Shown here in pieces: positions 31,391 through 47,141 of a stretch of 64,000 nt of DNA. Under the pieces are notes generated by a model, which made no database searches, had not been told where the DNA came from, and saw only the letters and a list, made by a program, of their open reading frames with translations. This stretch comes from an uncultured delta proteobacterium (GTDB lineage: Bacteria; Desulfobacterota; DSM-4660; Desulfatiglandales; HGW-15), in the NCBI GenBank assembly GCA_963740905.1, contig CAVUFY010000013.1, forward strand, positions 264,147-328,146, given 5' to 3'. The position numbers were made by a program, and so were the translations under genes. Position 1 is the stretch's first letter; the number at the start of each line of letters is the position of its first letter.

Positions 31391-32170
31391 TTACCGGGAG
31401 GTCACAGACTGTCTTTCGACCTTCAGGCGGATGGCTTCGGCCGCTTCCTTGGTAAAGGCTCCGAGGGCTTTCATCCTGGCTTCATCAAGACTCGCCTTGA
31501 ACCCCACGACCCAGATCGCGGACATGCGATGACTTCCCGCCATAATAGGCGCAGCCACAGCCCTCACTCCCGGGATATACTCTTCATCGTCCGTGGCAAA
31601 TCCCCGCTGTTTCACGACTTTCATTTCTTCACAATAACGGTCCAAGTCTGTGATTGTGTTGTCCGTGTATTTGGCCAGCCCCTTCATACGAATCTGCCTC
31701 ACTGCCTGCTCTTCTTCCATCATGGCCAGGAAGACCTTCCCGACAGCGCCCGCAAGGAGAGGGATGTTGGTTCCAATGGGGGAGGTGATTTTCAGGTCTG
31801 TCCTCGGTTCGACAATGTCGAGGATCGTGACGTGATCCCAGTTGAGCACACCTAGAAAAACGGAAGCTTGGGTCTTCTCCATGAGTTCTTCCATGGCGGG
31901 GCGCGCGAGATCCTTCAGGTCAATCTGCGAATAGGCCGTTTTGCCCAGTTCAAACAAGGTAAAACCCAGGGTGTAGCGTTTGGTCATGGGATCCCTTCGC
32001 ACGGCTCCCAACTCTTCCAGCGCGGAAGTCATGCCGTGCACCGTGCTCTTGGCCATGTCCAGTCCCCGGGCGATTTCACTGATGCCCATGCCTTCTTTGA
32101 CTGAGGCGATCAGTTTGAGGACCTCGAAGGCTTTTACGACGGAAGGAGCAGAGTATGCTTTTGCCATCAT
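31391..32170 (-). CDS. IclR-family transcriptional regulator
   Basis: N-terminal wHTH (VVKAFEVLKLI...GISEIARGLDMAKSTVHGM) and a C-terminal IclR effector domain. Confidence 0.88.
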   Translation of the reverse strand: MMAKAYSAPSVVKAFEVLKLIASVKEGMGISEIARGLDMAKSTVHGMTSALEELGAVRRDPMTKRYTLGFTLFELGKTAYSQIDLKDLARPAMEELMEKTQASVFLGVLNWDHVTILDIVEPRTDLKITSPIGTNIPLLAGAVGKVFLAMMEEEQAVRQIRMKGLAKYTDNTITDLDRYCEEMKVVKQRGFATDDEEYIPGVRAVAAPIMAGSHRMSAIWVVGFKASLDEARMKALGAFTKEAAEAIRLKVERQSVTSR

Positions 32171-32433: not shown

Positions 32434-33492
32434 ATGGATTTTGAAAACCTTGTCGAAGGTCCTTTACTGTGGATTGTTTTTCTCGTCCTCATCATCGCCG
32501 TCCTGGCAAGGCTGAGCTTTTTTTCCTTCAAAATTATCCATGACGCCGACACGGCGCAACCTGGGCGGAGTTCGAAAGCCGCCCTGTTCGGTCGATTCTT
32601 TTTCCCTTTCCATAAGGCATTGGTCAAGAGACCAGCCTATGCTCTCCCACGCTACATTTTTCATTTCTGCCTGTTTGTAGTTCCCCTCTGGTTGGGCGGT
32701 CATGTAGCGCTTTGGGCCGAATCCCGTTTTGAATGGGAGTGGTCTTCCCTGCCCGACCCCGTTGCGGACTGGATGACCATCGCCGTAATGGTCATAGCCG
32801 TGTTCTACGTCATCCGAAAGATCGCGTGGCCCGGTGTAAGACCAGGATCGTTGTCCGACTACCTGATCATCCTCATCGCCGCGCTACCTTTCTTCACCGG
32901 GTACTCTCTTTCTCACGGAACCCTCGACGCTCTGCCTGTGATCGGAGGGCATGTGATGCTCATCCATGTACTGAGCGGTCAGGCGATGATGGTCATGGCA
33001 GCGTTTCTCTTCTGCAGAACACGGCTAAACCCATCGAGATGCACGGGATGTGCTTCCTGCGAATTAAGCTGCCCTACCGGGACTCTCGAATCCAAAGATG
33101 AGGGAAGATTTCGAATTTTCAGTTACTCCCATTATCAATGCATTTGTTGTGGCGCCTGCGTTAACACCTGCCCGGAGAATGCTGCGGAGCTCAGACACGA
33201 AATCAGCCTCAAGGAGTTCTTTCAGGTTATCCCTAAGCAGGAAATCAGATCAGTAGAACTGAAGGCCTGCCAGAAATGCGGCGCTCTTTTCGTGCCCGAG
33301 CCTCTATTGGATAAAATCAACCGGACCTTTTCGGACGACTATCTCTTCTTCTGCCCGAACTGCAGAAAAACCAACCTCCTCAATCTGTACCGCAGGCTGT
33401 CACCCCTGTATACCAAAGAGCCGTCTCCTTCGCATGAGCCTGTGTTACCCGAGACAAAAAACGGCTCTTCCGAAAGACCCGCACACCGCTAG
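32434..33492 (+). CDS. Membrane protein: NarI/DsrM-like 5-TM (putative b-type cytochrome) domain fused to a 2x[4Fe-4S] ferredoxin domain
   Basis: About five hydrophobic helices carry His residues in helices 2 and 5 (FHFCL...GGHVALW; GGHVMLIHV). These are followed by CTGCASCELSCP and CICCGACVNTCP. The start is at MDFENL; the ORF opens at 32347. Confidence 0.7.
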   Translation: MDFENLVEGPLLWIVFLVLIIAVLARLSFFSFKIIHDADTAQPGRSSKAALFGRFFFPFHKALVKRPAYALPRYIFHFCLFVVPLWLGGHVALWAESRFEWEWSSLPDPVADWMTIAVMVIAVFYVIRKIAWPGVRPGSLSDYLIILIAALPFFTGYSLSHGTLDALPVIGGHVMLIHVLSGQAMMVMAAFLFCRTRLNPSRCTGCASCELSCPTGTLESKDEGRFRIFSYSHYQCICCGACVNTCPENAAELRHEISLKEFFQVIPKQEIRSVELKACQKCGALFVPEPLLDKINRTFSDDYLFFCPNCRKTNLLNLYRRLSPLYTKEPSPSHEPVLPETKNGSSERPAHR

Positions 33493-33784: not shown

Positions 33785-34063
33785 ATGGCGCCAGAGAAAG
33801 GAGATCTTTCAACAGCAGAAAGCCTGCGCTCTACCAGGACATACGGCAAATTCCGATGCCACAATCCCACATGCATGGAAAGGCTGGAACCCAAGAAAGG
33901 TGATAAAACCATCAAGTGCCCGTCGTGCGGCATGGAATACCGCGTTGCATGGGTCAAGGATGGACTCCCTCGAATCAGGGGACCGGTCTGGGACGTGAAC
34001 CGAAAAATCGCTGAAGAAGAATTAGCCAGAAAAATGCAGGCTAAGGGGAAGGAGGAGAAGTAA
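33785..34063 (+). CDS. Small zinc-ribbon protein (92 aa), translationally coupled to AOR-2
   Basis: AGGAGAT SD, then MAPEKGD...CHNPTCMERL...CPSCGMEY. Its stop overlaps the AOR-2 start (TAATG). Confidence 0.6.
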   Translation: MAPEKGDLSTAESLRSTRTYGKFRCHNPTCMERLEPKKGDKTIKCPSCGMEYRVAWVKDGLPRIRGPVWDVNRKIAEEELARKMQAKGKEEK

Positions 34064-36003
34064 TGCCTTTAAACAGAAAAATTGCTTATATTGATCTCAC
34101 CACAGGGGACATCCAGATAAAACCTATTCCTATCGAGGTTCGAAAAAAGTTCCTCGGAGGCAGAGGGCTGGACGCCTACCTGCTTTTTAACCACGCCAAA
34201 GAGGGGTGTGATCCCCTCGGCCCGGACAATGCGCTCATGGTGAGCGGCGGATTCCTTTGCGCCACCTGCGCTTCTGCAACGTCCAGGTGCCATGTGATGG
34301 CCAAATCCCCCCTAACCGGACTTTTGGGGAGCTGCAACATGGGCGGTTTTTTTTCTCCTGAAATGGCCTGGGCAGGGTTCCATCATCTGGTAATCACAGG
34401 CAAAGCCAAGCATCCCGTATACATCTATATCCATAACGGCGAAATCGAGATCCGTGACGCCCGCGGCGTGTGGGGCCTGAGTGTGACGGAAGCTCAATGG
34501 GCCATTCGGGATGATCTCGGCGACCAGGAAGTCAAGAGCATGGTCTGCGGCCCTGCCGGCGAGAACCTGGTCCGATACGCCAACGTGATGACCGGGATCA
34601 AAAACTCGGGCGGAAGGACAGGCATGGGCTGCGTCATGGGCTCGAAGAACCTCAAGGCCGTTGCCGCCAGGGGAACCATGGACATCCCCATCGCACACCC
34701 CAAAGAGGCTCTCGAATTCAATAAGCGTTTCATTGAACAGATCACGAGCGCCAAGGTGAACCAGACCCAGGGCACCATCGGTACGCCCTTCATCTGGGGC
34801 GCCACCAACTCCTGGGGAGGAATCCGGTGTAGGAACTTCCAGTTAAACCAGTGCGAATACGCGGATGACGTCGAACCTGAGCATCTCGACGAAATCGCCG
34901 AGGAAACGATCGGACCCTACCACATGACCGGTTGTTTCGGTTGTCAGGTGCACTGCCGGGCTCAGTACAAGATCCCAGATGGTCCCTATGCGGGCAAGTA
35001 TGATGAGGGGCCGGAATATACCTCCCAGGGCGCTTTCTGCGGGGAAACGGACACCCCCAGGGCAACTACTCTGCTGACAGCCAACCACCTTGTGGATCAG
35101 TACGGAGTGGACAACCTTGAAATCGGCAGCATTATCTCCTGGGCCATGGAGCTCTATGAGTTGGGGATACTGACCAGCAAAGACACGGACGGCGTGGATC
35201 TGCGCTTCGGCAATGACGAAGCGGTCATTGAAATGATCCACCGCATTTGCTACAGGAAGGGTTGGCTTGGCGACGCTCTGGCCGACGGAGGTATTCCTGC
35301 TTCGAAGAAGATCGGCAAGAACTCCTTCAGCTATCTGATCCAGGTCAAGGGCATGAGCAACCTTCATTCCGACGAGCGGGCCACGCCGGGCCTTGCGCTC
35401 AACATCGCCACCTCCTCCAGAGGTTCGGACCACCTGCGAAGCCGGCCTGCTATCGACCTTTATCACCTTCCTGAACCGGTCATGCGAAAGATTTACAGCA
35501 GTCCGGTTCCTTACGACGGACCCTTGAGCTCCGAGCATACGGAATATATCGGCAAACCCTGGCAGGTCTTCTGGCATGAAAACTGTTACATGGCCGTGGA
35601 TTGCCTCGGGATCTGCAAATACCACACGACTTTTCTCGGGGCGACCCTTCCCAACTTCGAGGACTGGGCAAAGGTCATTTACTACAATACGGGCCTTCAG
35701 TTTACCCCTCAGGAAATCTGGGAGGTCGCCGAGAGGTGTAACAACATGGAGCGGCTCTTCAACTTGAGGGAAGGGTTGTCCAAGGATGATCCTGAAAAGG
35801 GCGATGTGCTCAACCATCGTTATCACGACGAGCCTTGCAGGCGTGGCGCGCCGGACGTCGTCGGTCGACTCATTGATAAGGACAAGTTCCTGAAGATGAG
35901 GGCTGAGCTTTACGGCCACAAGGGTTGGGATGAAGATGGAATCCCCACACCTGAGACTCTGAAAAGACTCGGCATCGACAACGAGCCGTCACACTTGGTG
36001 TAA
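34063..36003 (+). CDS. aor: Tungsten-type aldehyde:ferredoxin oxidoreductase (AOR family), copy 2
   Basis: IAYIDLTTG...FLGGRGL..., Cys ligand region, and AOR C-terminal domains. At 646 aa it is longer than copy 1. Confidence 0.92.
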   Translation: MPLNRKIAYIDLTTGDIQIKPIPIEVRKKFLGGRGLDAYLLFNHAKEGCDPLGPDNALMVSGGFLCATCASATSRCHVMAKSPLTGLLGSCNMGGFFSPEMAWAGFHHLVITGKAKHPVYIYIHNGEIEIRDARGVWGLSVTEAQWAIRDDLGDQEVKSMVCGPAGENLVRYANVMTGIKNSGGRTGMGCVMGSKNLKAVAARGTMDIPIAHPKEALEFNKRFIEQITSAKVNQTQGTIGTPFIWGATNSWGGIRCRNFQLNQCEYADDVEPEHLDEIAEETIGPYHMTGCFGCQVHCRAQYKIPDGPYAGKYDEGPEYTSQGAFCGETDTPRATTLLTANHLVDQYGVDNLEIGSIISWAMELYELGILTSKDTDGVDLRFGNDEAVIEMIHRICYRKGWLGDALADGGIPASKKIGKNSFSYLIQVKGMSNLHSDERATPGLALNIATSSRGSDHLRSRPAIDLYHLPEPVMRKIYSSPVPYDGPLSSEHTEYIGKPWQVFWHENCYMAVDCLGICKYHTTFLGATLPNFEDWAKVIYYNTGLQFTPQEIWEVAERCNNMERLFNLREGLSKDDPEKGDVLNHRYHDEPCRRGAPDVVGRLIDKDKFLKMRAELYGHKGWDEDGIPTPETLKRLGIDNEPSHLV

Positions 36004-36025
36004 TTTTTGGATGAGGAGGAAACCA

Positions 36026-36523
36026 ATGGCTAAAGTGCTCTATGTTGATTACCAGAAATGCACAGGCTGCAGGCTCTGCGAACTTGTGTGTTCTGTGTTC
36101 CACGACGGCATTTCCAATCCGGCCAGAAGCCGAATCAGGGTCATGAAGTGGGAGCAGGAGGGGCTCTACATCCCCATGTCATGCCAGCAGTGTGTGGACG
36201 CCCCCTGCATGAATGTGTGCCCGGTCAAGGCTATTTCAAGAGATGAGGATATGGCCAGGGTCATGGTGGACTACGATAAATGTATCGGCTGCCGATCCTG
36301 CGTAGCCGTCTGTCCCTTCGGCGCCATGTCCTTCAATCGCATGGACAAGAAGGTGTTCAAGTGCGACGTCTGTGACGGCGATCCCCAGTGCGTCCGCTTC
36401 TGTGACATGAAGGCCGTGGATTATGTCGATGCCGACGAGGTAAGCATTCATAAGAGAAGGGATGCCGCCACAAGAGTATCCCGTGCGGGGAAAGAGGCGG
36501 CCGCCATGGTGGCACAACTCTAA
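36026..36523 (+). CDS. Poly-ferredoxin electron-transfer subunit (4 x [4Fe-4S] motifs, AorA/HybA-like)
   Basis: CTGCRLCELVCS, CQQCVDAPCMNVCP, CIGCRSCVAVCP, CDVCDGDPQCVRFC. Confidence 0.88.
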   Translation: MAKVLYVDYQKCTGCRLCELVCSVFHDGISNPARSRIRVMKWEQEGLYIPMSCQQCVDAPCMNVCPVKAISRDEDMARVMVDYDKCIGCRSCVAVCPFGAMSFNRMDKKVFKCDVCDGDPQCVRFCDMKAVDYVDADEVSIHKRRDAATRVSRAGKEAAAMVAQL

Positions 36524-36635: not shown

Positions 36636-38066
36636 ATGGAAATTAAGACCATCGATCTCCTTTCTGTCGGCATAGACGTCGGCAGCGCAACCAGTCACTT
36701 GGTCTTTTCAAACCTGGTCCTGGCGAAGGACGAGATGTCCCCGACGCTCCGGTTCAATATCAAGCAAAGAAAGGTCATTTACGAGGGCGAGATCATTCAG
36801 ACCCCTCTTCTCGAAGACAAGACTATTGATGTGGATGCGTTGACCGCCTTTTTCAGGCGGGAATACGAGAAGGCGGGAATTGACCCCGCCCACATTCAAA
36901 CCGGCGCGGTGATCATTACCGGGGAGTCGGCCAAGAGACACAACGCACGGCAGATCGCTCAGGCCCTGTCCAAGGATGCAGGGAAGCTCGTGGCGGCGAC
37001 TGCGGGCCCTAACTTCGAAAGCCTTCTCGCTGCTATGGGCTCCGGAGCAACCGGAAGATCAAGAGATCAGAGCAAGACCATACTTTCCTGCGACATCGGC
37101 GGCGGGACATCCAACCTGGCCATTTCCAGAAACGGTGAAGTTCTCTCAACGAGTTGCATCGCTGTAGGCGGCAGATTACTGGCCATGGATTCTGAGATAA
37201 GAATCCGCCAGTTTGCCGATCCGGCGATGAAAGTCATGCGGGATATCGGCTTGAACTATCAGGTCGGCGATCGGATACTCAAAGAGGATATTGGAAAAAT
37301 CGCATCCAGGATGGCCGAAGTGCTGGTTGAAGTGTTGACGGGGCCTGCCAAGTCTTCCCTGGCAAAACAGCTCATGGTAACCGGTGATCTGGACTTTTCG
37401 ACCCCTGTCGATGAATATCTGTTTTCCGGAGGGGTGGCAGAGATCATCTACGGAAGAAAGGGTCGTTACAATGACATCGGAAGTATTCTTGCAAAAAAGA
37501 TCCAATCGTTGATTCCTGCACTCAAGTCTCCGGTTGTAGAGCCGGTCAACAAGATCAGAGCGACGGTCATCGGTGCAGGGGCCTATTCCCTGTCCGTTTC
37601 GGGTTCGTCGGGCTTTATAGACGACCGTCTCATCCTTCCTATCAGAAACATCCCTGTCCTGAGGGTGGACGCGGAGCTTCCAAAGCTGAGTCTGGAACAT
37701 GTCGTTTCACGGGTGAACATGGCTTTTCGGAGACATGATTTGCTCGAAGGCCAGGAAATCGTGGCCCTCTACTTCAAGGACCCTGTCCGGGTCAACTATC
37801 CGGAGCTGGAGCTCTTTGCAAAAGCCATGGAAACGGCCCTTCCAAACTCTATCACCAAAGAGCTGCCCATTGTCCTCATTTTTGGAAAAGATATCGCATG
37901 CAGTGTGGGCAAGGTTATTCGCCGGGAAACCGATTTGAAAACCAATCTGCTTTCCCTGGACGAATTATCCCTCAACGACGGGGATTGGATCGATATTAGC
38001 GAGCCTTTGGTAGGGCGGCAGGTATTTCCTGTCACCGTCAAATCGCTCGTCTTCCCTGTAAACTAA
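36636..38066 (+). CDS. EutA-family (ethanolamine ammonia-lyase reactivase-like) ASKHA ATPase
   Basis: LLSVGIDVGSATSHLVFS...GAVIITGESAKRHNAR...VAATAGPNFES...DIGGGTSNLA...VGGRLL parallels E. coli EutA block by block, as I recall that sequence. Confidence 0.85.
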   Translation: MEIKTIDLLSVGIDVGSATSHLVFSNLVLAKDEMSPTLRFNIKQRKVIYEGEIIQTPLLEDKTIDVDALTAFFRREYEKAGIDPAHIQTGAVIITGESAKRHNARQIAQALSKDAGKLVAATAGPNFESLLAAMGSGATGRSRDQSKTILSCDIGGGTSNLAISRNGEVLSTSCIAVGGRLLAMDSEIRIRQFADPAMKVMRDIGLNYQVGDRILKEDIGKIASRMAEVLVEVLTGPAKSSLAKQLMVTGDLDFSTPVDEYLFSGGVAEIIYGRKGRYNDIGSILAKKIQSLIPALKSPVVEPVNKIRATVIGAGAYSLSVSGSSGFIDDRLILPIRNIPVLRVDAELPKLSLEHVVSRVNMAFRRHDLLEGQEIVALYFKDPVRVNYPELELFAKAMETALPNSITKELPIVLIFGKDIACSVGKVIRRETDLKTNLLSLDELSLNDGDWIDISEPLVGRQVFPVTVKSLVFPVN

Positions 38067-38264: not shown

Positions 38265-38735
38265 TCAGACTTTCAAAGCTCTCTCCAGCGCAAGTCCTGC
38301 CATCTTCCTTACATGCTCATCGCTTGAGATCAGGTAATCCGCGATTCCCTCTATAAACGATGCAGTGAAAAGCGCCAGTCCATCGAAGAGCTCTTCCTTT
38401 TCCTCCTTTGCCCGGAGACACACGATCTTAGGAAACTTTCTCTGCTTCTTGAATCCTTCCACAAGGATCAAATCACAACCGGCACAATATGGGAGCATGT
38501 CATCAAGACTCTTTTCTCCCTTGACGATGATTTCTGCCTCCCCGGGAGAAGCGGCTGCAACCACCTCGGCGAAGGGTCTGTATCTGGACGAATCCGCATC
38601 GGCAAGCCGGAGCTCACAGGAAACGTGTTTGACCACCCCCACACGCAGCCCTTTGTCGGAGAGTTCCCTGCACAGTTTAACACCCAGCGTGGTCTTGCCG
38701 CTCTTGTGGTAACCGACGATGCCGATGACTTTCAC
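38265..38735 (-). CDS. mobB: Molybdopterin-guanine dinucleotide biosynthesis adaptor protein MobB-like
   Basis: MKVIGIVGYHKSGKTTL...VGVVKH... and MobB-like size. Confidence 0.8.
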   Translation of the reverse strand: MKVIGIVGYHKSGKTTLGVKLCRELSDKGLRVGVVKHVSCELRLADADSSRYRPFAEVVAAASPGEAEIIVKGEKSLDDMLPYCAGCDLILVEGFKKQRKFPKIVCLRAKEEKEELFDGLALFTASFIEGIADYLISSDEHVRKMAGLALERALKV

Positions 38736-38741: not shown

Positions 38742-39014
38742 CTATCCTCCTGCAAGCATCATGGTCACATGAATCTCATCCCCATCCTTTACCGGTTTAA
38801 GCAGTTCATTCGGGTAGGCGCTCTGCATATTCAAATAGATCTCCACGACGTTGTTGAGTCCCCCCTTCTTATCGAAGATGTTCGGCCCCATGCCCGGGAA
38901 TATCCCTACCAGAGTCTTTAGGCATTCTCCTACCGTTTTTCCTTCCACCTCGACCATTTCCTGCCCGTTTGCGTATTGTCTGAGAGTCAGGTGAAGGTTT
39001 ACTTTCACACCCAT
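38742..39014 (-). CDS. moaD: MoaD/ThiS-family sulfur carrier (C-terminal Gly-Gly)
   Basis: 90 aa, ...GDEIHVTMMLAGG. Confidence 0.8.
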   Translation of the reverse strand: MGVKVNLHLTLRQYANGQEMVEVEGKTVGECLKTLVGIFPGMGPNIFDKKGGLNNVVEIYLNMQSAYPNELLKPVKDGDEIHVTMMLAGG

Positions 39015-39017: not shown

Positions 39018-39761
39018 CTACTCCTCCTTGGCCACGTGGGCACAGTGTTCACATTCCGGATTCCTGCTCACCTTGAATTCGGCAAACCTCAGATTCAGCC
39101 CATCGTAGATCAACAAACGATTGACGAGCAGTTCGCCGGCCCCCGTGAGATATTTTATGACCTCCGTAGCCTGGATGCAACCGATAACCGCCGGTGTAGC
39201 ACCGAGAACAGGGAATTTCTCATGAGGTCCGGGGCCTCTGTAGAGACAGCGCAAGCATGCGCTTTTTCCCGGAATTACAGTCATGGCCCGTCCTTCCAGG
39301 CCGCGGACCGCGCCATGGAAAAAAGGAATACGCAGCGCGACGGCCGCTCTGTTCAGGATGAACCTTGTAGGCAGGTTATCCATGGCGTCCACGATTGCGT
39401 CACATCCTGTCGTAAGATCCTTCACATTGTCTTCTGTGATCGTCTTGTCTACGATTTCCACCTTGACGTGAGGATTCATTTTTCGAAGCTTTTCACTTGC
39501 TGAATCCACTTTCTTTCTTCCCACGTCTTCATCCCAGTGGAGGATCTGTCTATTCAGGTTGCTCACCTCAATCCTGTCATGATCTGCCAGCCTGATCCCG
39601 CCCACGCCGGCAACGGCGAGATACATGCTGACAGGTGATCCGAGACCTCCTGCGCCCGCAACAAACACTCTTGCCTCTTTCAGTTTCTCCTGCCCGGCTT
39701 CCCCAATCTCCGGGATCATGATCTGCCTGTCGTATCTTTTCAGCTCTTCGGCTTTGAACAT
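39018..39761 (-). CDS. moeB: Molybdopterin-synthase adenylyltransferase (MoeB/ThiF family)
   Basis: RYDRQI...VFVAGAGGLGSPV...DHDRIEVSNLNRQ and C-terminal CxxC pairs (CLRC, CEHC). Confidence 0.88.
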   Translation of the reverse strand: MFKAEELKRYDRQIMIPEIGEAGQEKLKEARVFVAGAGGLGSPVSMYLAVAGVGGIRLADHDRIEVSNLNRQILHWDEDVGRKKVDSASEKLRKMNPHVKVEIVDKTITEDNVKDLTTGCDAIVDAMDNLPTRFILNRAAVALRIPFFHGAVRGLEGRAMTVIPGKSACLRCLYRGPGPHEKFPVLGATPAVIGCIQATEVIKYLTGAGELLVNRLLIYDGLNLRFAEFKVSRNPECEHCAHVAKEE

Positions 39762-39928
39762 GACCGGTTCCTCCCACAGATAGGCCCACAGAAAAGGCTT
39801 TACAACGCCACCCCGTTATGGAACTTTTAAGCAATCCCAATCTGTTTTTCAAGCGCTTTCCTTGATGAAATCATCTGCGATGATGGATTTCATTGTCCAC
39901 ACTTTCTGAAAAGGGTGACAGGCCAACC

Positions 39929-41342
39929 ATGACTGTCAAACGACAAAAGATGGTCATTCTTGCAAGCTATCTTCCCGGCGAAACCTACGGCCTTCTCGGA
40001 CCCCAGGCAGCGGCAACCATCATTCAGGGGCATTCCCCTTACGAATGCGTCGTCCTCGCGGTCACCAGAGAGGATGACAAAAGCCTGCTCAAAAAGCTCC
40101 TGGCCCGTTTCTTCGACTCTGGAAAGGCCTGTGGTCGGCTTTTCTTACCTCAGCGGAAGAGAAGACCTCTTCTCTTTTGCTAAAGAACTCACCGAGGAGG
40201 GAGGATTCACTATTCTAGCCGGTCCCCAAGCCGATGTGGATTACCTAGGTGAAAAGGAATGGCGAAAATACGACCACCGTTTTAACGGACTTTCAAAACA
40301 CTTTTCCTTAGCCCTGCACGGGCCTGCAGAGCAGATTCTTGCACTTTTTCATGAACCGAAACAAAGCGCCTGGAGCAAAGTGCCCGGATTGCTTTGGCCG
40401 GATAAAGAACAGGGGTTGATCCAGAATCCGAAGTCCTCATGGGATCCAGCCCGTTTCACCAGAGTTTCATGGAATAACCTTTATCGCCTGGTGGATGGCC
40501 AAATGGTCCCTCTGAAGATTACCACCGCGCAAGTTCTCTGGCATATCGGTTGCCCTCATGCGGCCCGCGCCCGGCTTGCGGAAGTGGATTATCCGGCGTT
40601 CCTGGCTGGAGGGGAAAGAAAGAAAACAAAGGTCCTTCTCAGGGGTTGCAGTTTCTGCGACGTGGCAGTAGACAAGGGTTTCCTCGGCTCTCTCGGCATC
40701 GAAGCCGTTCTCTCTCAGATCCAGAACCTTCCTGAAAAGGAGGACGGCCGGAAGATAAGTTTTGAATTGATCAATGAAAACGCCCTTCCTAGCCTTCCTC
40801 GCCTGCTGGAAGCGCTCAGGATCAAGGGGGTCAGTCTCTCCCAGATCCATCTCACTCTCAGGGCCGACTGGTTCGGACTGGGGGAAGCCTACCTCCGGCA
40901 AGCCCTGCGATTGGCCCGGGAGATGGGAATCCGGATCTTACTGGGGTCCATGGGTTTTGAATCCTTTGACGACACGATCCTTGCCAATCTCCACAAAGGC
41001 CTGGATGTGAGCACCAACCTGCGCGCCATTCAGCTTATGCGTCAAATGAAGAATGAGTTTCCCGACCAGTGGAGCTACTCCAGGCAGGATGGGGCCGTCC
41101 ATGGGTTCATTCATCCTACCCCTTGGGACACGGAGGAGACGGAGGCCAACAGCCGCAAAATTATTAACACCTACGGGTTGGCCCTTGACATCCTGCCGGA
41201 TCACAGTATACCTCTCATCATTCACCATGCCTCGGCCCTCGGGGACTGGATTCGCGAAGTGGAGACGAAAGAGAATATTCAATTCAAAAGGGAGGGCACC
41301 ATCATCGGATGGTGGCAGGCGGGAGATCAATTTGTGCTGTAG
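39929..41342 (+). pseudogene. B12-binding-like domain / radical-SAM-like protein with an apparent 1-nt frameshift near 40121-40130
   Basis: Frame A (39929-40130) gives MTVKRQKMVILASYLPGETYGLLGPQAAATIIQG...LLARFFDSGK. Frame B continues (R)PVVGFSYLSGREDLFSFAKELTEEGGFTILAGPQA, as in B12-binding domains. The C-terminus has GCSFCDV and LGSMGFESFDDTILANLHKG (radical-SAM-like). The alternative is two separate genes, the second starting at a GTG near 40129. Confidence 0.6.
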
Positions 41343-41389
41343 GAATGAACCCCGCAGATTTCATGGGACCAGAGCAAAGGAGGAAAGAC

Positions 41390-41584
41390 ATGAAAGTAAG
41401 GATTGATTACGACCTGTGCATGGGAGACAGGAATTGTAACAAGGTCTGCCCCGAGGTTTTTCAGTATGATGAAGACAAGCTCATATCACGTGTTCTAGCC
41501 GAAGTGGTGCCTAGACACCTGGAGAAGGCCGTGAGAAAAGCGGCTCGAGAATGCGCGCCGGGAGCCATTGTCGTGGAGGAGTAG
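41390..41584 (+). CDS. Small single-cluster ferredoxin
   Basis: AGGAGG SD, then MKVRIDYDLCMGDRNCNKVCPEVF...ECAPGAIVVEE. Confidence 0.7.
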   Translation: MKVRIDYDLCMGDRNCNKVCPEVFQYDEDKLISRVLAEVVPRHLEKAVRKAARECAPGAIVVEE

Positions 41585-41595: not shown

Positions 41596-42279
41596 TCACT
41601 CAAGCATTCTCATCTTCCACACTTTTTCGCCCTGTTTGAGGGTAACGGCGTCCTGGCTTATTCCCGTGACGCTCACCCCTTCCACCATTCCGTTTGCTCG
41701 GACAATGTGCCCGTTGATCACGGCAAAACATGATTCAGGGTCATGTGACCAGACAATGGCCTGGAGCTCCAGCACGGGCCCAGCCGAATCATGAGGCGCT
41801 CTTTCGACACGCGGACGAGGTGGTTCGATCCGTCGTTGAGACGTTCTCTCTTTCAGGTCTTCCTTAAGAACCGTGGCAGGGACTTTGGGGGCGTTTAATC
41901 TTGCAGCCTCGGGCTCTGCTGCCATGTCGAGTTCAGGGATCGCTCTCTTCCCATCCGCCGGCCCCGGCTTTTCCTTTCCGAGCTTTTCCGAATCCAGAGG
42001 GAGAAAGAGGGGCGTTTTTTCCTCGGAGATTTTGGGGACAGCGGGTGCGGAAGCTGGTGCTATGGGCGCGAAGGACATGTGCCGTAAGCCGATTACAACG
42101 CCTGCGGACAACACAAGGATCAACCCCAGAAGTGTCGTCATTCGATGGACAAGCCAGGTCCTCCTTATCCTCTGGTTCATGGCTCGCTTGGCGTCAAACT
42201 TCTTCGGCGGGGACAGGTCAGAGGCCTGCTTGGTCGATTGGCTTTCGATCTTCCTAAGGGCTTTCAAGATGGCGCTCAA
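41596..42279 (-). CDS. GspB/ExeB-like protein (N-terminal MSxILxALRK motif, TM helix)
   Basis: MSAILKALRKIESQS..., one TM helix and a Pro-rich periplasmic part. It lies downstream of the exeA-like gene. Confidence 0.6.
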   Translation of the reverse strand: MSAILKALRKIESQSTKQASDLSPPKKFDAKRAMNQRIRRTWLVHRMTTLLGLILVLSAGVVIGLRHMSFAPIAPASAPAVPKISEEKTPLFLPLDSEKLGKEKPGPADGKRAIPELDMAAEPEAARLNAPKVPATVLKEDLKERTSQRRIEPPRPRVERAPHDSAGPVLELQAIVWSHDPESCFAVINGHIVRANGMVEGVSVTGISQDAVTLKQGEKVWKMRMLE

Positions 42280-42380
42280 GAATCAGAACTCCCTCATGTG
42301 CTGTTTATATCCCACCCTTGCCCAAAAATCCTCTCACGCAGGCTGCCGGACGCAAGTAGACGCTATGCTGGCCCGCGAGT

Positions 42381-44201
42381 CTAATCAACAAGTCGTGGGA
42401 TGTTCAGCGACCTATTCTCGTTATACAGCGCAATCTTGGTGAAAGGCCCCACCAGTCCATCCGTTTGGATTCCGTGCTTTGCCTGAATCCCTTTAATGAC
42501 CATGATGGTCTGACCATTATAGGCTGAGCTGATCTCTATTCCTTCATAGCCAAGATCGCGGATAAACGCCTTGAGACTCAGTACGGAATCAGCTGAGCTC
42601 TCGTAGGGAATCACTCCTTCATAACCCAGGAAGTCCTTCCATGGAACATACGCGACACCCCCCCAATAGGGCTTGATCTGACTGAAAGCGCACTCCATCT
42701 CGCCCCTTTCCGGCGCGCTGAAGGTCAGATCATCCTGGTGCATCTTCACAAGTGCCACAAACTTGGGAGGCAGGTTATCACCCATCCGAATCTCGAGAAT
42801 GGCGGGCAAATTGAGTTTTCGCAAAAGATCCAAGCCCTCTGTAACCCTGAGAATTTGTAAACCCTTTTGCTTGGCAGCAATGCGAAAGAAAGCCTGGTCA
42901 TCGTCCATCGTATCGAGGAGGCTGGTAATCTCCGGCTGGTCGGTCCACAGATCGAGGACAGCCGTGAGCGCATGGGTTCTCGTTGCCCTTCTGTCCATCG
43001 AGTTCAGATAATCATCAAAATTTCCAAGAGGCTTCGATAAGGACCCCTGTTTCTGTGATTCTTGAAAAGGAGGCTTCTCCGTCTCTGTCTCCATGGCCGG
43101 AGCTTTCGGTATGAGTGCTGGGTTGGCCTGATTTTCCTTGATTGCGGAGGGTAGAACGGTAGCCTGGCTCAAATAGGGATCGAGCATCTTCTCCTTCTCG
43201 TTTTCAACCTTTTGCCGCACCTTCGGAGTTTCGAGTTCTTTTGATTCTAGAAGAGTGCTGATTCGCATATCCACCGAGCGATGAATAACCAAGAAGATAG
43301 AAGCCAGGTAAAGGACGGCCACCAGCACCCCAAGGAGGACTCCCAAGGAAAGCGGCATTTTCCTCCCCCCGCCAAGTGCGGTTTTCCGAACATTAACGCG
43401 TCCCGCAAGTTCCCGGATGGCAGCCCTTGCGATGATACCGGTCATTCGCTTGCGATTCAGGCCGAAGGCAGTGAGAAGGACACGGTCGGAGGCAATGTTG
43501 ATCATTCTTGGAACGCCTCCCGAGTATCGGTAGATGGCACGGTAGGCGCCGCGTGCAAACTTGACATCGGACTTTTGCGAAGCCACCTGAATACGATGCT
43601 GGATGTACTCCCTGGTCTCCTTGAAGGTTAAGGGAGTCAGGTGACAACTGAGAGTGATTCTTTGCCCAAGCTGCCTCAGGTCATGGGAATCCAGCATTTC
43701 GCTCAGCTCGGGCTGTCCCACCAGGATAATTTGTAAAAGCTTGCTTGTGGTGGTTTCCAGATTGGAAAGAAGCCGCAACTGTTCGAGGACGTCTTTGCTC
43801 AGATTTTGTGCCTCATCAATGATGAGAACAACTTTCTTGCCCTCCGCCTTCTTCTTCATGAGGAAGCCATTGAGGCCGTCAATCAGATTCTTGATGTCCT
43901 CCCCGTGGGATGCTATACCGAATTCATCACTGATGGCCTTAAGCAACTGCAGGGCGTCCAGTTTGGGATTGAAGATGTAGGCCGCTTCCGTGAATTTGTC
44001 CAGGTTCTCGAGCACAGCACGGCACAGGGTCGTCTTTCCCGTGCCCACCTCACCTGTCATTTCAACGAATCCGTCTCCTTGGGAGATGGCATAAACGAGG
44101 TGTGCCATCGCCTCTTCATGGCTCCGGCTCAGAAAGAGGTAGGCGGGATTAGGAACAAGCTGGAATGGCCTTTCCCTGAATCCGTAGAAGTTGTTGTACA
44201 T
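42381..44201 (-). CDS. ExeA/GspA-like AAA ATPase with a C-terminal peptidoglycan-binding domain
   Basis: FYGFRERPFQLVPNPAYLF...GEVGTGKTTLCRAV...IIDEAQNL, a TM helix, and C-terminal ...GIQTDGLVGPFTKIALY. Confidence 0.88.
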   Translation of the reverse strand: MYNNFYGFRERPFQLVPNPAYLFLSRSHEEAMAHLVYAISQGDGFVEMTGEVGTGKTTLCRAVLENLDKFTEAAYIFNPKLDALQLLKAISDEFGIASHGEDIKNLIDGLNGFLMKKKAEGKKVVLIIDEAQNLSKDVLEQLRLLSNLETTTSKLLQIILVGQPELSEMLDSHDLRQLGQRITLSCHLTPLTFKETREYIQHRIQVASQKSDVKFARGAYRAIYRYSGGVPRMINIASDRVLLTAFGLNRKRMTGIIARAAIRELAGRVNVRKTALGGGRKMPLSLGVLLGVLVAVLYLASIFLVIHRSVDMRISTLLESKELETPKVRQKVENEKEKMLDPYLSQATVLPSAIKENQANPALIPKAPAMETETEKPPFQESQKQGSLSKPLGNFDDYLNSMDRRATRTHALTAVLDLWTDQPEITSLLDTMDDDQAFFRIAAKQKGLQILRVTEGLDLLRKLNLPAILEIRMGDNLPPKFVALVKMHQDDLTFSAPERGEMECAFSQIKPYWGGVAYVPWKDFLGYEGVIPYESSADSVLSLKAFIRDLGYEGIEISSAYNGQTIMVIKGIQAKHGIQTDGLVGPFTKIALYNENRSLNIPRLVD

Positions 44202-44612: not shown

Positions 44613-45191
44613 TTATTCCTCCTCAAAGGCTTGGACTTGGTAAGTAGACACTTCAAGTGTCTCGTTTTTCCACGCTTCCGCGTCAAGCCCCGCCTTCATG
44701 CAGAGATGGGCGAGGAAAGCTTCCTTGTCGGGAAGTTGGTCCCAAACTTGTGGAAGGAAGGTCGCCTGGTAATAGCCCTTTCGGATGATCACTCCATCCA
44801 CACCCGGTCTCAGCCTGTTCAACAGGTCGTGGGCGTCCGAATAGAAGAGGGGCCGGGGCTCAGTCAGGATGCTTACTTCTATTTTGATCTTTCCGAATTC
44901 GTTCTTTGAAAGAGGTCTGAACCTGGGATCCCGGAAGGCGGCATTGGTGGCGTTCACTCTGACCCCATCGATCACAGTTTCCTGAGGGATGATATGGCCG
45001 ATGCATCCCCTCAGGTTTCCGTTCATAGTAAGCGTGACGAAGGTACCTCGCTTTTCTGAGAATCTCGGCGAGAAGTCCGTCTCATCCTTGGTTCCGCCTT
45101 TCCTTTCGAAAAGGGCTTGATCAATGGCCTGCCTTGCGACTTGCAGAAGATGTCTCCCCTCTGCCTCGGTCAGTTTGTTCGTATCCGCCAT
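44613..45191 (-). CDS. AMMECR1-domain protein
   Basis: ...RGTFVTLTMNGNLRGCIGHI... is the AMMECR1 signature. AAGGAGGG lies upstream of the ATG at 45191. Confidence 0.85.
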   Translation of the reverse strand: MADTNKLTEAEGRHLLQVARQAIDQALFERKGGTKDETDFSPRFSEKRGTFVTLTMNGNLRGCIGHIIPQETVIDGVRVNATNAAFRDPRFRPLSKNEFGKIKIEVSILTEPRPLFYSDAHDLLNRLRPGVDGVIIRKGYYQATFLPQVWDQLPDKEAFLAHLCMKAGLDAEAWKNETLEVSTYQVQAFEEE

Positions 45192-45419
45192 CCCACCCTC
45201 CTTGACCATGCGGCGTTGCACTCCAGTGAGTGCTCTGTCCTCCGGCTTCGCAAACCGGAGATACATGAAAGAAACACGACACACCATGGTATTACTCTTC
45301 CGGTTTCATCTCATTCTCAAAGAGCCCTGCTGCCTTTTCATGATCTTAACTCTTATTATTTTACCAATCGACAAAAAGATTTCTTCCTCTGTTCCCGAGC
45401 TGAAATCTGTCGGCAGATT

Positions 45420-45742
45420 TCATTTGGAAGAAACCGACAAGCGGAAGACGGGCGTTTCGATATGAGATTTCTTGCATTGGGGACATCGACTCGGGCGGGT
45501 AAATCGCTTCCTTTCTTCAAAGGTATACCCACAGGCAAACAGCGAACAGGAAGGACGGTGAGCTTTCCCCGATGAGCCGCCACAGTGCGCGCAATATGAT
45601 CGAGATGATCAAGGACTTCTCTTTCCCGGATTCCAAGCGCCTGAGAGAGGTCTTTGGCGGTCATTTCTTGTTCGCTGAGGAGGGCGATCATTCTCTGACG
45701 AAGAGTTTGAGACTGATCCACTTTTCCCAAAAGCCGGCTCAT
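45420..45742 (-). pseudogene. HTH + C-terminal zinc-ribbon transcriptional regulator with an apparent 1-nt deletion near 45535-45541
   Basis: Frame 1: MSRLLGKVDQSQTLRQRMIALLSEQEMTAKDLSQALGIREREVLDHLDHIARTVAAHRGKLTVLPVRC. The next frame continues ACGYTFEERKRFTRPSRCPQCKKSHIETPVFRL*, which completes the expected CxxC...CxxC ribbon. The uncorrected ORF (to 45356) loses all ribbon cysteines. Confidence 0.6.
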
Positions 45743-45896
45743 CCTTTCAGTGAATCTCCCGCCACTTAAGAGGCTGTGCCACGATGCAAATAAATCGCCA
45801 AGGCGAGCGAATCTTGAGGAATGATGAGCACATGGAAGTGCGCTGCAACGACTGAGGATGAAGCGCAACGCAGCAGATGGACTTTTCACGAAGTCG

Positions 45897-47141
45897 TCAA
45901 ATTTCAAAAGCCTTGAAGACCAAAGAAGCGTTGGTTCCGCCGAAGCCGAAGGAGTTTGACATGGCCGCCTTCACGCTCCCTTTTCTTGCCGCGTTAGGAA
46001 CGAAGTCCAAGTCACATTCGGGGTCAGGCGTTTCGTAGTTGATGGTCGGCGGCATTATCCCGTGTCTAATGGTAAGAGACGTGTAGATCGCTTCGATACC
46101 CCCTGCCCCACCAAGAAGATGGCCGGTCATGGATTTGGTCGAACTTACCGCCAGTTTGTAGGCGTGCTCCCCGAAGACAGCCTTGATGGCTCTCGCTTCC
46201 GATTCGTCGTTCAGTTTGGTGGATGTTCCGTGGGCGTTGATATAATCGATGTCTTCCGGTTTGAGCCCTGCATCTTCCACAGCATTCTTCATGCAAAGGA
46301 TCGCACCGACGCCGTTCGGGTCGGGTGCCGAAATGTGGTAGGCATCCGCTGACATGCCGTAACCGACCACTTCGGCATAAATGTGGGCACCCCGCTCAAG
46401 GGCTTGGTTAATCTCTTCAAGAATGAGGATCCCTGCTCCCTCCGCCATGACGAACCCGTCCCTGTTCAAATCAAACGGGCGAGACGCCCTTTCAGGTTCA
46501 TTGTTTCGGTTGGAAAGAGCCCTCATGGAGCAAAAGCCGCCCAGAGCCAGCGGCGTGACCACGGCTTCCGAGCCTCCCGAAATCATGGCATCTGCCTTGC
46601 CTTCCTGGATGAGCCTGAAGGATTCCCCAACGGCATGGCTGCTCGCCGCGCAGGCAGTCTCAATGGAAAGATTGGGCCCCTTAGCGCCGAATTCTATGGC
46701 AATTTGCCCGGGTGCCATATTGGCAATGATTCCGGGGATGAAAAAGGGGCTGATCCGACGGGGACCTTGCTCCAGTAAGACCTGATGATAGTGCTCGAGC
46801 ATGGCCAGCCCACCCAACCCGGAACCGGTGAGGCATCCGACCCGGTGACAGTTCTTATCCGTAATCTTCATCCCCGAGTCCTCGATCGCCATCCTGGCTG
46901 AAGCCACGGCGTAGTGGACAAAAATATCAAAACGTCTTACTTGCTGCTTATCCATAAAGTCTTCGGACTTGAAATCGCGGACCTCTCCGGCAATCTGACA
47001 CGGAAAAGCAGAAGCATCGAATTTTTCGATCCTTCCGATTCCTGATTTTCCGGCGCAGACAGCCTCCCAGTTCTTTGCAACACCAGTGCCCAAAGGAGTC
47101 ACCATCCCAAGGCCTGTGATGACCACCCTTCTTTTCTTCAT
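45897..47141 (-). CDS. fabF: 3-oxoacyl-ACP synthase II
   Basis: RRVVITGLGMVTPLG...active-site ACAASSHA...HGTST...GHLLGGAG. Confidence 0.93.
   Translation of the reverse strand: MKKRRVVITGLGMVTPLGTGVAKNWEAVCAGKSGIGRIEKFDASAFPCQIAGEVRDFKSEDFMDKQQVRRFDIFVHYAVASARMAIEDSGMKITDKNCHRVGCLTGSGLGGLAMLEHYHQVLLEQGPRRISPFFIPGIIANMAPGQIAIEFGAKGPNLSIETACAASSHAVGESFRLIQEGKADAMISGGSEAVVTPLALGGFCSMRALSNRNNEPERASRPFDLNRDGFVMAEGAGILILEEINQALERGAHIYAEVVGYGMSADAYHISAPDPNGVGAILCMKNAVEDAGLKPEDIDYINAHGTSTKLNDESEARAIKAVFGEHAYKLAVSSTKSMTGHLLGGAGGIEAIYTSLTIRHGIMPPTINYETPDPECDLDFVPNAARKGSVKAAMSNSFGFGGTNASLVFKAFEI

What the first reader, a model, noticed from the sequence alone, without database searches (positions are those of the whole stretch)
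39929..41584. B12-domain / radical-SAM-like gene with a split Cys motif (C-X31-C-X2-C), an apparent frameshift, and a trailing mini-ferredoxin
**What the sequence shows.** The N-terminal B12-binding-like sequence is in one frame up to ...FFDSGK. The natural continuation, (R)PVVGFSYLSG...ILAGPQA, is in the +1 frame, with the junction inside ctctGGAAAGGcctgtg (40117-40133). The ORF-track start at 39960 yields Pro/Ser/Arg-rich junk before that point.

Further downstream, a normal radical SAM enzyme would read GCPxxCxFC. This protein instead reads HIGCPH-[AARARLAEVDYPAFLAGGERKKTKVLLRG]-CSFCDV, so 31 residues lie between the first and second Cys. The later GFESFDDTILANLHKG block is typical of radical SAM enzymes. 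A 64-aa ferredoxin (41390-41584) follows.

An imperfect palindrome, ATGAAATCATC-N3-GATGAT(GG)ATTTCAT (39865-39893), sits in the divergent promoter region shared with moeB.

**Inference.** This is either an unusual radical SAM variant involved in cofactor maturation or a decaying gene.
Basis: partly seen in the sequence, partly recalled or inferred. Interest (0 to 1): 0.55.

Follow-up and report, generated by a model that had tools for sequence, protein, structure and literature searches.

The report
Split-motif radical-SAM-like gene beside tungsten enzyme
This gene belongs to an undescribed, widespread family of radical-SAM-like enzymes whose three iron-sulfur-binding cysteines are always split by a long insert, and which sits next to a tungsten aldehyde oxidoreductase operon; in this genome one extra base breaks its reading frame.

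Summary
The gene at 39929-41342 reads in one frame up to ...RFFDS and continues in the +1 frame. DNA alignment with two relatives shows exactly one extra base, most simply a G at 40121/40122. Removing it gives a 470-aa protein, the usual length in the family.

More than 1,100 homologues exist. Nearly all of the 80 located in reference genomes come from Desulfobacterota metagenome-assembled genomes, and every one inspected is a single fused protein.

The split motif C-X31-C-X2-C is a family trait, not decay. These are the only invariant Cys down to about 20% identity, and the spacer ranges from about 27 to 47 aa. The corrected protein matches 120 of 120 invariant family columns.

A confident AlphaFold model (pLDDT 90.9) matches cobalamin-dependent radical SAM TokK and MiaB-type enzymes. 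No Pfam or NCBIfam family claims the protein.

The family is tied in both directions to a conserved operon: small zinc-ribbon protein, tungsten-type AFOR, polyferredoxin, IclR and an EutA-like protein. A MoaD/ThiS-like carrier lies divergently upstream in 30 of 61 loci. The likeliest role is AFOR-specific maturation, which is inferred, not shown.

The mini-ferredoxin is real but lineage-specific (7 of 86 loci). The palindrome is not conserved. Whether the frameshift is an assembly error or a recent mutation needs reads.

The parts
39929..40120 (+). N-terminal 64 codons of the radical-SAM-like gene (RSL), frame A (MTVKRQK...RFFDS)
   Evidence: Aligns residue for residue with the N-termini of 470-aa homologues.
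40121..40122 (+). GG dinucleotide holding the one extra base (frameshift site). The indel can only be placed within 40115-40122.
   Evidence: DNA alignment A2 with L086 and L001 shows a single 1-nt gap in both relatives at this point.
40122..41342 (+). Rest of RSL in the +1 frame (ERPVVGFSYLSG...GDQFVL, stop 41340-41342). The public annotation calls only a 403-aa product from GTG 40131.
   Evidence: (P0001, 403 aa, 100% identical over 86% of the query).
40551..40553 (+). Cys208 (first Cys, in HIGCPH)
   Evidence: Invariant in alignments A1, A3 and A4.
40554..40646 (+). 31-residue insert between Cys1 and Cys2, predicted to form a beta-hairpin (strands 214-220 and 232-238)
   Evidence: pLDDT about 79-89 over this stretch. 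Spacer length is 27-47 aa across the clade.
40647..40658 (+). Cys240-Ser-Phe-Cys243 (CxxC half of the motif)
   Evidence: C240, F242 and C243 are invariant.
41390..41584 (+). 64-aa single-cluster ferredoxin with a CxxDxxC...C pattern
   Evidence: Pfam Fer4_15 and Fer4_13. Closest solved structures are T. maritima Fd (1rof) and P. furiosus Fd (1siz). Present downstream of RSL in only 7 of 86 loci.
39865..39893 (.). Imperfect palindrome in the divergent intergenic region
   Evidence: 8-nt perfect arms. Not conserved beyond the nearest relative.
39018..39761 (-). ThiF/MoeB-type E1, divergent from RSL
   Evidence: Pfam ThiF 9.5e-79. Found upstream on the opposite strand in 15 of 61 loci.
38742..39014 (-). 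ThiS/MoaD-like sulfur carrier ending in Gly-Gly
   Evidence: Pfam ThiS, translation. Found within 2 kb upstream of RSL, always on the opposite strand, in 30 of 61 loci.
38265..38735 (-). MobB-like P-loop protein
   Evidence: Pfam MobB 9e-23.
36636..38066 (+). EutA-family (reactivase-like ATPase) protein
   Evidence: Pfam EutA 1.9e-135. Present in 15 of 17 well-flanked AFOR loci.
36011..36523 (+). 170-aa polyferredoxin
   Evidence: Pfam Fer4 families. Present in 17 of 17 AFOR loci.
34063..36003 (+). Tungsten-type aldehyde:ferredoxin oxidoreductase (AFOR), 646 aa
   Evidence: AFOR_N and AFOR_C. Closest solved structure is P. furiosus AOR 1aor, 6e-91.
33785..34063 (+). 92-aa Cys-rich (zinc-ribbon-like) protein whose stop overlaps the AFOR start by 1 nt
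   Evidence: Present in 17 of 17 AFOR loci. No significant Pfam hit.
31391..32170 (-). IclR-family regulator of the cluster
   Evidence: Pfam. Present in 16 of 17 AFOR loci.

Best explanation
The gene encodes a member of an uncharacterised family of about 470-aa proteins that is widespread in Desulfobacterota.

**Architecture.** It has the layout of cobalamin-dependent (class B) radical SAM enzymes: an N-terminal Rossmann-type, B12-binding-like domain followed by a radical-SAM partial barrel. The usual CX3CX2C cluster motif has been pulled apart. Cys208 sits at the end of one strand (GCP). A 31-residue beta-hairpin follows, and then Cys240-x-x-Cys243 (GCSFC).

**Likely chemistry (inferred).** The three Cys bind one [4Fe-4S] cluster that cleaves SAM.

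**Likely role (inferred from gene neighbourhood).** The enzyme probably matures a particular tungsten aldehyde:ferredoxin oxidoreductase or its tungstopterin cofactor. It would work with the divergently encoded MoaD-like sulfur carrier and MoeB-like E1, and possibly with the EutA-like ATPase. This parallels, without homology at the family level, the radical SAM genes next to archaeal AOR.

**State in this genome.** One extra base at about 40121/40122 splits the gene. Nothing else in it is damaged, so this is either a sequencing or assembly indel or a very recent inactivating mutation.
For: **Frameshift.** Searches show one extra nucleotide relative to two relatives. The corrected length of 470 aa is the usual one in the family.

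**Family size.** 1,147 hits among the 8,000 candidates scored. In the 50%-identity representative library there are 512 hits at E <= 0.001. Of the 80 loci recovered from reference genomes, nearly all are Desulfobacterota MAGs.

**Motif.** C208, C240 and C243 are the only invariant Cys in 18- and 49-sequence alignments reaching about 20% identity. The spacer varies from about 27 to 47 aa.

**No decay.** The corrected protein matches 120 of 120 invariant columns and 190 of 195 near-invariant columns. Intact homologues used as controls show 0-13 mismatches.

**Fold.** The AF2 model has pLDDT 90.9 and pTM 0.90. The top Foldseek hits in the PDB are TokK (E 3e-9, TMq 0.55), then MiaB/MtaB, then the Elp3 radical SAM domain.

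**Neighbourhood, starting from RSL.** In 32 well-flanked RSL loci, AFOR is present in 22, the polyferredoxin in 23, s90 in 22, ThiS in 16 and EutA in 14. ThiS lies divergently upstream in 30 of 61 loci.

**Neighbourhood, starting from AFOR.** Of 17 well-flanked loci found with the AFOR as query, 13 carry RSL.

**Precedents.** In T. kodakarensis the order is AOR, MoaD-like protein, radical SAM (PMC11323500). The A. aromaticum aor operon carries the MoaD-like aorD and aorE (PMC6365974). NCBIfam TIGR04317 is named 'tungsten cofactor oxidoreductase radical SAM maturase' (seen). QueE, with CX14CX2C, shows that an extended loop between Cys1 and Cys2 is compatible with a canonical cluster site (PMC4389238).
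Against: - Pfam Radical_SAM scores only 18.9 bits against a 29.5-bit cut-off. Pfam B12-binding does not hit at all.
- No solved structure matches by sequence, even at E <= 1.
- No biochemical data exist for any member.
- About 30% of well-flanked RSL loci have no AFOR nearby. These sit in unrelated contexts, such as CoA-transferase, acyl-CoA metabolism or a PLP enzyme.
- Solved AOR structures, to my knowledge, show an unmodified tungstopterin, so the substrate of any 'maturase' is unknown.
- The cluster lacks MoaE, the usual partner of MoaD.
Confidence: 0.6

Rival explanations
1. The frameshift is a real mutation, and the gene is a recently inactivated pseudogene in this organism. The AFOR either works without it or is itself unused.
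For: The extra base is not inside a long homopolymer, only GG. The other genes of the cluster are intact and the same length as in the relatives L086 and L001. No other obvious split genes appear in the 64-kb window, so the assembly does not look indel-prone. The public annotation of the same genome also calls only a truncated 403-aa product.
Against: There is no second lesion, and 120 of 120 invariant and 190 of 195 near-invariant positions are intact. Any inactivation would therefore have to be very recent. A single-base indel is also the commonest assembly or consensus error. No reads are available.
Confidence: 0.4
2. Programmed +1 ribosomal frameshifting joins the two frames into one protein.
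For: The two frames join seamlessly into a full-length protein.
Against: All other family genes examined are contiguous, with none of the 85 homologous loci showing a shift at this site. The site, GAC UCU GGA AAG, has no slippery run, no stop or rare codon in the zero frame and no properly spaced upstream Shine-Dalgarno sequence (comparison with the prfB-type site is from my own knowledge).
Confidence: 0.02
3. The protein has a radical-SAM-like fold but does not carry out radical SAM chemistry. The three Cys would bind a cluster or metal for another purpose, for example TsrM-like non-radical methyl transfer, a redox role or a structural role.
For: The Pfam score is below threshold. The canonical motif is broken. 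The GGE-type motif is degenerate ((D/N)(E/Q)NP).
Against: Exactly three Cys are invariant, and the CxFC half with its aromatic residue is retained. The GFES, KG and RxD blocks typical of class B and MiaB-type enzymes are conserved. QueE shows that a long Cys1-Cys2 loop still gives a normal site.
Confidence: 0.2
4. The family's function has nothing to do with the AFOR. The neighbourhood reflects inherited gene order in related Desulfobacterota. The true partner would be the MoaD/ThiF pair, for example in a sulfur-insertion reaction on another substrate, or something else entirely.
For: 21 of 61 RSL loci with at least 2 kb of upstream flank have no AFOR in the locus, yet 10 of those 21 still have ThiS. 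Contexts such as L004 and L005 are unrelated to AFOR. The fold also resembles the sulfur-inserting MiaB and MtaB.
Against: The association holds in both directions: 22 of 32 loci from RSL and 13 of 17 from AFOR. It also holds across several gene orders, including s90-AFOR-Fer4x-RSL directly on one strand, RSL upstream of the operon, and RSL divergent from ThiS-ThiF. That variety argues against simple inherited synteny. RSL identities in these loci are only 52-67%. The N-terminal domain lacks the three Cys of the auxiliary cluster found in methylthiotransferases.
Confidence: 0.2

Closest known systems
Cobalamin-dependent (class B) radical SAM enzymes, e.g. TokK (7kdx) and TsrM (6wte)
   Same: Two-domain layout with an N-terminal Rossmann-type domain and a radical SAM barrel. 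These are the best structural matches (E 3e-9, TMq 0.55). RSL shares sequence blocks of the GxES, KG and RxD type.
   Different: The cluster motif is CX31CX2C rather than CX3CX2C. Pfam B12-binding does not hit and Radical_SAM is below threshold. Sequence identity is 12-16%. Cobalamin binding is unproven.
MiaB/MtaB/RimO methylthiotransferases
   Same: Fold match over the whole length (E about 1e-7, TM 0.43-0.50). The genomic link to a sulfur-carrier protein is suggestive of sulfur chemistry.
   Different: RSL has no three-Cys auxiliary-cluster motif in the N-terminal domain and no TRAM domain.
QueE (7-carboxy-7-deazaguanine synthase) with CX14CX2C
   Same: An insertion between the first and second cluster Cys that leaves a canonical cluster site (PMC4389238).
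   Different: The RSL insert is two to three times longer (27-47 aa) and forms a hairpin. The fold subclass differs, and there is no sequence relationship.
AOR-linked radical SAM 'maturases': P. furiosus Cmo / T. kodakarensis TK1064 / NCBIfam TIGR04317
   Same: Same genomic logic: a radical SAM gene beside a tungsten AOR and a MoaD-like carrier (PMC11323500). Their function is also unknown.
   Different: RSL does not match TIGR04317 even at E <= 1. Those proteins are canonical MoaA/SPASM-type enzymes with CX3CX2C and no B12-like domain.
Pyrococcus furiosus / Thermotoga maritima single-cluster ferredoxins (for the 64-aa ORF)
   Same: Same length and pattern. The window protein has Asp at the second ligand position, like the P. 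furiosus Fd. To my knowledge that Fd is the redox partner of AOR.
   Different: The match is modest (E about 2e-7 to 4e-7). Only four Cys are present. The ORF occurs in just 7 of 86 RSL loci.

Membership tests
Radical SAM superfamily (PF04055) | CX3CX2C cluster-binding motif | tested here: not met
   No CX3CX2C exists anywhere in the protein or its homologues. The motif is CX31CX2C here and CX27-47CX2C across the clade, and those three are the only invariant Cys.
Radical SAM superfamily (PF04055) | Profile score at or above Pfam's gathering threshold | tested here: not met
   18.9 bits against a 29.5-bit cut-off, E 0.0018, covering residues 239-374. A few homologues pass weakly.
Radical SAM superfamily (PF04055) | Partial TIM-barrel radical SAM fold | tested here: met
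   The model has pLDDT 90.9. The nine best PDB matches are all radical SAM enzymes with probability 1.00.
Radical SAM superfamily (PF04055) | [4Fe-4S]-dependent reductive cleavage of SAM | not testable with these tools
   Needs biochemistry.
Class B (cobalamin-dependent) radical SAM | N-terminal Rossmann-type cobalamin-binding domain | tested here: inconclusive
   The full-length fold matches TokK and TsrM. Pfam B12-binding gives no hit for this protein and only weak or moderate hits in distant relatives: P0242 at 5e-4 and P0202 at 2e-8.
Class B (cobalamin-dependent) radical SAM | Bound cobalamin used in catalysis | not testable with these tools
   The only hint is indirect. An EutA-family protein lies in the cluster, and EutA is known, from my own knowledge, as a reactivase of a B12 enzyme.
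TIGR04317 tungsten cofactor oxidoreductase radical SAM maturase | Match to the NCBIfam model | tested here: not met
   There is no hit at E <= 1.
Methylthiotransferases (MiaB/RimO/MtaB) | Three-Cys auxiliary cluster in the N-terminal domain | tested here: not met
   No Cys is conserved across the clade in residues 1-200. Cys40 is conserved only among close relatives.
Pseudogene | Disrupted reading frame relative to intact orthologues | tested here: met
   One extra nucleotide.
Pseudogene | Further signs of relaxed selection, such as extra lesions or loss of conserved residues | tested here: not met
   120 of 120 invariant columns are retained and there is no second frameshift or stop.
Single-cluster [4Fe-4S]/[3Fe-4S] ferredoxin (Fer4_13/Fer4_15) | Profile score above the gathering threshold and the Cys pattern | tested here: met
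   49.3 bits (cut-off 22.4) and 48.1 bits (cut-off 24.5). The protein aligns with 1rof and 1siz.

The most novel reading that the evidence does not exclude
RSL defines a new subclass of radical SAM enzyme with an obligatorily split cluster motif (Cys, then a 27-47-residue hairpin, then CxxC). It is the dedicated maturase of one clade of bacterial tungsten aldehyde oxidoreductases. It would act on the tungstopterin or on the AFOR polypeptide, using a MoaD-like thiocarboxylate and/or cobalamin, with the EutA-like ATPase servicing its cofactor. If so, it would be a tractable bacterial handle on the long-unanswered question of what AOR-linked radical SAM 'cofactor-modifying' proteins do.
Probability: 0.3. 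Interest if true: 0.75.

Novelty: new variant of a known kind. Interest (0 to 1): 0.58.

Why it matters
Radical SAM enzymes are usually recognised by CX3CX2C. A family of more than a thousand sequences in which the first Cys sits 27-47 residues away escapes the Pfam and NCBIfam models, and most members are annotated 'hypothetical'. It extends the known tolerance of the cluster loop well beyond the CX14CX2C of QueE.

Its two-way genomic coupling to a tungsten AFOR operon and to a MoaD/MoeB pair gives a concrete candidate for AFOR-specific maturation in bacteria. What the analogous archaeal radical SAM genes do next to AOR is still unknown.

For genome annotation, the practical point is that the 403-aa public call is a truncation caused by a single extra base.

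Tried and rejected
- **Sequence searches of the PDB.** A profile search found no radical SAM hit. There was nothing at E <= 1 and only a spurious PelA hit at E <= 10.
- **Source genome.** An exact-sequence look-up of the public 403-aa product returned no contig.
- **Literature.** Searches for 'CX31CX2C', for AFOR with EutA, and for a tungsten 'radical SAM maturase' found nothing.
- **First structure model.** A model from a 24-sequence alignment was mediocre (pLDDT 71). It was replaced by a model from a 49-sequence alignment that includes distant relatives (pLDDT 90.9).
- **Palindrome as operator.** Rejected as a family feature. Both arms occur in 3 of 104 upstream regions, and in the nearest relative the spacing is changed with one arm mismatch. 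No enriched upstream 8-mer stood out.
- **Sigma-54-like TGGAAC-N-GCA at about 39814-39830.** The spacing is one base short of the consensus and the element is not conserved in L001, so I dropped it.
- **Programmed frameshifting.** Rejected; see the rival explanations.
- **Ferredoxin as an obligate partner.** Rejected, because it is present in only 7 of 86 loci.
- **Error-prone assembly.** A scan for other split genes in the window found nothing obvious.
Full report
**1. What is in the sequence**

An ATG at 39929 opens a frame reading MTVKRQKMVILASYLPGETYGLLGPQAAATIIQ...LLARFFDSGKACGRLF..., which stops at 40183. The +1 frame (ORF 39960-41342) begins with Pro/Ser/Arg-rich sequence and then reads ...LERPVVGFSYLSGREDLF... 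through to GDQFVL*. A 64-codon ORF with a good Shine-Dalgarno sequence follows at 41390-41584.

**2. The frameshift**

A search of 5.8 billion proteins returned 1,147 hits among the 8,000 candidates scored.
- The best are 458-526 aa, with 470 aa the commonest length.
- They cover 100% of a frame-joined query.
- The only 100%-identical entry is a 403-aa product (P0001) from a 562-kb public contig. It starts at GTG 40131, so the public annotation is truncated.

In a 24-sequence alignment, homologues read ...(F/Y)FGxERPVVGFSYLSGR... without a break. DNA alignment with the two closest syntenic relatives shows a single one-base gap in both relatives. These relatives are L086 (encoding P0002, 80% aa identity) and L001.
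- Window: TTCTTCGACTCTGGAAAGGCCT
- L086: TTCTTCGGCGTC-GAAAGACCT

Deleting one G of the GG at 40121/40122 gives ...RFFDSERPVVGFS... and a 470-aa protein.

The corrected protein matches 120 of 120 columns that are invariant in 22 homologues. It also matches 190 of 195 columns that are at least 90% conserved. Intact homologues treated the same way show 0-13 mismatches.

There is no second lesion. The neighbouring cluster genes have the same lengths as in the relatives, and no other obvious split genes appear in the window.

The defect is therefore a single-base insertion. It is either an assembly or consensus error or a very recent mutation, and only reads can decide. Programmed +1 frameshifting is very unlikely. 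The site has no slippery or pausing features, and no other family gene examined is shifted.

**3. The split Cys motif is a family trait**

In corrected numbering, Cys208 (GCPH), Cys240 and Cys243 (GCSFC) are invariant in the close family. HMMER read all 1.84 billion representative proteins with the family profile and found 512 relatives at E <= 0.001. The full-length distant ones (P0123 to P0154 and P0190 to P0246, 19-38% identical) all keep GC(P/A)...(K/R)GCSFC. The spacer is about 27-47 residues.

Across 18 and 49 sequences, the only invariant Cys are these three. Other conserved blocks are typical of class B and MiaB-type radical SAM enzymes:
- (D/N)(E/Q)NP in place of GGE
- LRAD
- GFESF
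- NKG
- HGFIxPTPW

**4. Fold**

The first AF2 model, from 24 close sequences, reached pLDDT 71. Adding distant relatives raised it to pLDDT 90.9 and pTM 0.90. The stretch between Cys1 and Cys2 is predicted as a short helix followed by a beta-hairpin (strands 214-220 and 232-238). The block-averaged pLDDT over residues 211-240 is 79-89.

Foldseek against the PDB gives radical SAM enzymes as the nine best hits.
- TokK, a cobalamin-dependent radical SAM methylase: E 3e-9, TMq 0.55
- MiaB and MtaB: TM 0.42-0.50
- The Elp3 radical SAM domain follows.

By sequence the protein is an orphan.
- Pfam Radical_SAM scores 18.9 bits against a 29.5-bit cut-off.
- Pfam B12-binding gives no hit.
- No NCBIfam family matches, including TIGR04317.
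- No PDB sequence matches.

I therefore call it radical-SAM-like with a class-B-type architecture. It fails the letter of two membership criteria, the motif and the profile score, and passes on fold.

**5. Genomic context**

The window cluster, in order:

| Coordinates | Strand | Product |
|---|---|---|
| 31391-32170 | - | IclR regulator |
| 32347-33492 | + | membrane Fe-S protein |
| 33785-34063 | + | 92-aa Cys-rich protein (s90) |
| 34063-36003 | + | AFOR |
| 36011-36523 | + | polyferredoxin |
| 36636-38066 | + | EutA-family protein |
| 38265-38735 | - | MobB |
| 38742-39014 | - | ThiS/MoaD-like carrier ending in GG |
| 39018-39761 | - | ThiF/MoeB |
| 39929-41342 | + | RSL |
| 41390-41584 | + | ferredoxin |

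The closest solved structure to the AFOR is P. furiosus AOR (1aor, 6e-91). BamB is far more distant.

I clustered the flanking ORFs of 85 homologous loci plus the window and checked the result by tblastn on 86 loci. Counts for the 32 RSL loci with at least 5 kb upstream and 3 kb downstream:

| Neighbour | Loci (of 32) |
|---|---|
| AFOR | 22 |
| polyferredoxin | 23 |
| s90 | 22 |
| ThiS | 16 |
| IclR | 16 |
| EutA | 14 |
| ThiF | 9 |
| ferredoxin | 1 |

Gene order varies, which argues for selection rather than mere inheritance. The orders seen include:
- s90-AFOR-Fer4x-RSL on one strand
- RSL divergent from ThiS(-ThiF)
- RSL upstream of the operon

ThiS lies within 2 kb upstream of RSL, always on the opposite strand, in 30 of 61 loci.

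For the reverse test I fetched 80 metagenome loci with the AFOR as query (81-93% identity). Counts for the 17 with adequate flanks:

| Neighbour | Loci (of 17) |
|---|---|
| s90 | 17 |
| polyferredoxin | 17 |
| IclR | 16 |
| EutA | 15 |
| RSL | 13 |
| ThiS | 11 |

About 30% of RSL loci lie in other contexts, so the link is strong but not absolute.

**6. How it most likely works**

*Shown here*
- A conserved three-Cys site.
- A class-B-type radical SAM fold.
- Two-way genomic coupling to a tungsten-type AFOR operon and to a MoaD-like/MoeB-like pair.

*Inferred*
- The three Cys hold a [4Fe-4S] cluster that cleaves SAM.
- The N-terminal domain may hold cobalamin.
- The enzyme modifies the AFOR or its tungstopterin.

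*Precedents for the genomic logic*
- The A. aromaticum aor operon carries two MoaD-like genes, aorD and aorE (PMC6365974).
- NCBIfam names TIGR04317 a tungsten cofactor oxidoreductase radical SAM maturase.

RSL is not homologous to those at the family level. It would be an analogue.

Two more specific ideas remain open.
- **Sulfur insertion.** The donor would be the MoaD-like thiocarboxylate. The MiaB-like fold fits this, but RSL has no auxiliary-cluster Cys.
- **Cobalamin-dependent methylation.** The EutA-like ATPase would service the corrinoid. EutA's known role as a B12-enzyme reactivase is from my own knowledge.

**7. The other elements**

The 64-aa ORF is a genuine single-cluster ferredoxin (Fer4_15, 8e-13). 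It is closest to the T. maritima and P. furiosus ferredoxins, with Asp at the second ligand position as in the P. furiosus protein. It follows RSL in only 7 of 86 loci, all among the closer relatives (RSL 59-81% identical). It is a lineage-specific accessory that could serve either RSL or the AFOR.

The palindrome has perfect 8-nt arms. It is altered in the nearest relative and absent from the other upstream regions, occurring in 3 of 104, one of them by a different sequence. There is no evidence that it is functional.

**8. Verdict**

'Decaying gene' is limited to one extra base of unknown reality.

The family appears to be undescribed. It has no curated model, and the literature I could search says nothing about it. 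It is a new variant of a known kind. Interest is moderate to fairly high, mainly for radical SAM enzymology and tungsten-enzyme maturation.

Noticed in passing
window 33785-34063 (+): A 92-aa protein with a CxxxxC...CxxC (zinc-ribbon-like) pattern. Its stop overlaps the AFOR start codon by 1 nt. It has no significant Pfam family, yet it is present in 17 of 17 well-flanked loci of this AFOR clade. It may be an undescribed AFOR subunit or chaperone.
   Followed up: partly
window 36636-38066 (+): A full-length EutA-family protein (Pfam 1.9e-135) sits in an AFOR operon with no ethanolamine ammonia-lyase genes nearby. It is conserved in 15 of 17 AFOR loci. Its client (RSL's putative corrinoid, or the AFOR) is unknown.
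   Followed up: partly
window 32347-33492 (+): A 381-aa predicted membrane protein with a C-terminal 2x[4Fe-4S] domain lies between IclR and the AFOR operon. It recurs in 12 of 17 AFOR loci. Other loci carry HdrA/HdrC-like, MTHFR_C-like (DUF5981), FAD (DAO) or multihaem modules, which suggests the electron-transfer partners are interchangeable.
   Followed up: partly
proteins P0202, P0217, P0232 (distant RSL relatives): Large proteins (733-1084 aa) carry an RSL-like core followed by a second, canonical radical SAM domain of the HxsC/MoaA-like type. P0202 also has a Pfam B12-binding domain. These are two-radical-SAM fusions within the wider split-motif clade.
   Followed up: no
window 39790-39865: The intergenic stretch upstream of RSL is roughly 90% identical to that of L086, by eye from the alignment. 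That is higher than the 80% amino-acid identity of the adjacent coding region. It includes a TGGAAC-N6-GCA element one base short of sigma-54 spacing. It is not conserved in L001.
   Followed up: partly
window 41596-44201 (-): A T2SSB-like protein (227 aa) is followed by an AAA_22 plus peptidoglycan-binding protein (606 aa), which looks like an ExeA/ExeB (GspA/GspB)-type pair. They are syntenic with RSL only in the closest relatives.
   Followed up: no
window 44613-45907 (-): AMMECR1 (224 aa) lies next to a protein with a PF0610-like N-terminal domain and upstream of a beta-ketoacyl synthase. The position relative to RSL is conserved only in near relatives (6 loci).
   Followed up: no
locus L072 1-1407: My ORF caller split the RSL homologue into two pieces in this contig-end locus. 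This could be another frameshift or simply an overlap with the downstream ferredoxin ORF.
   Followed up: no
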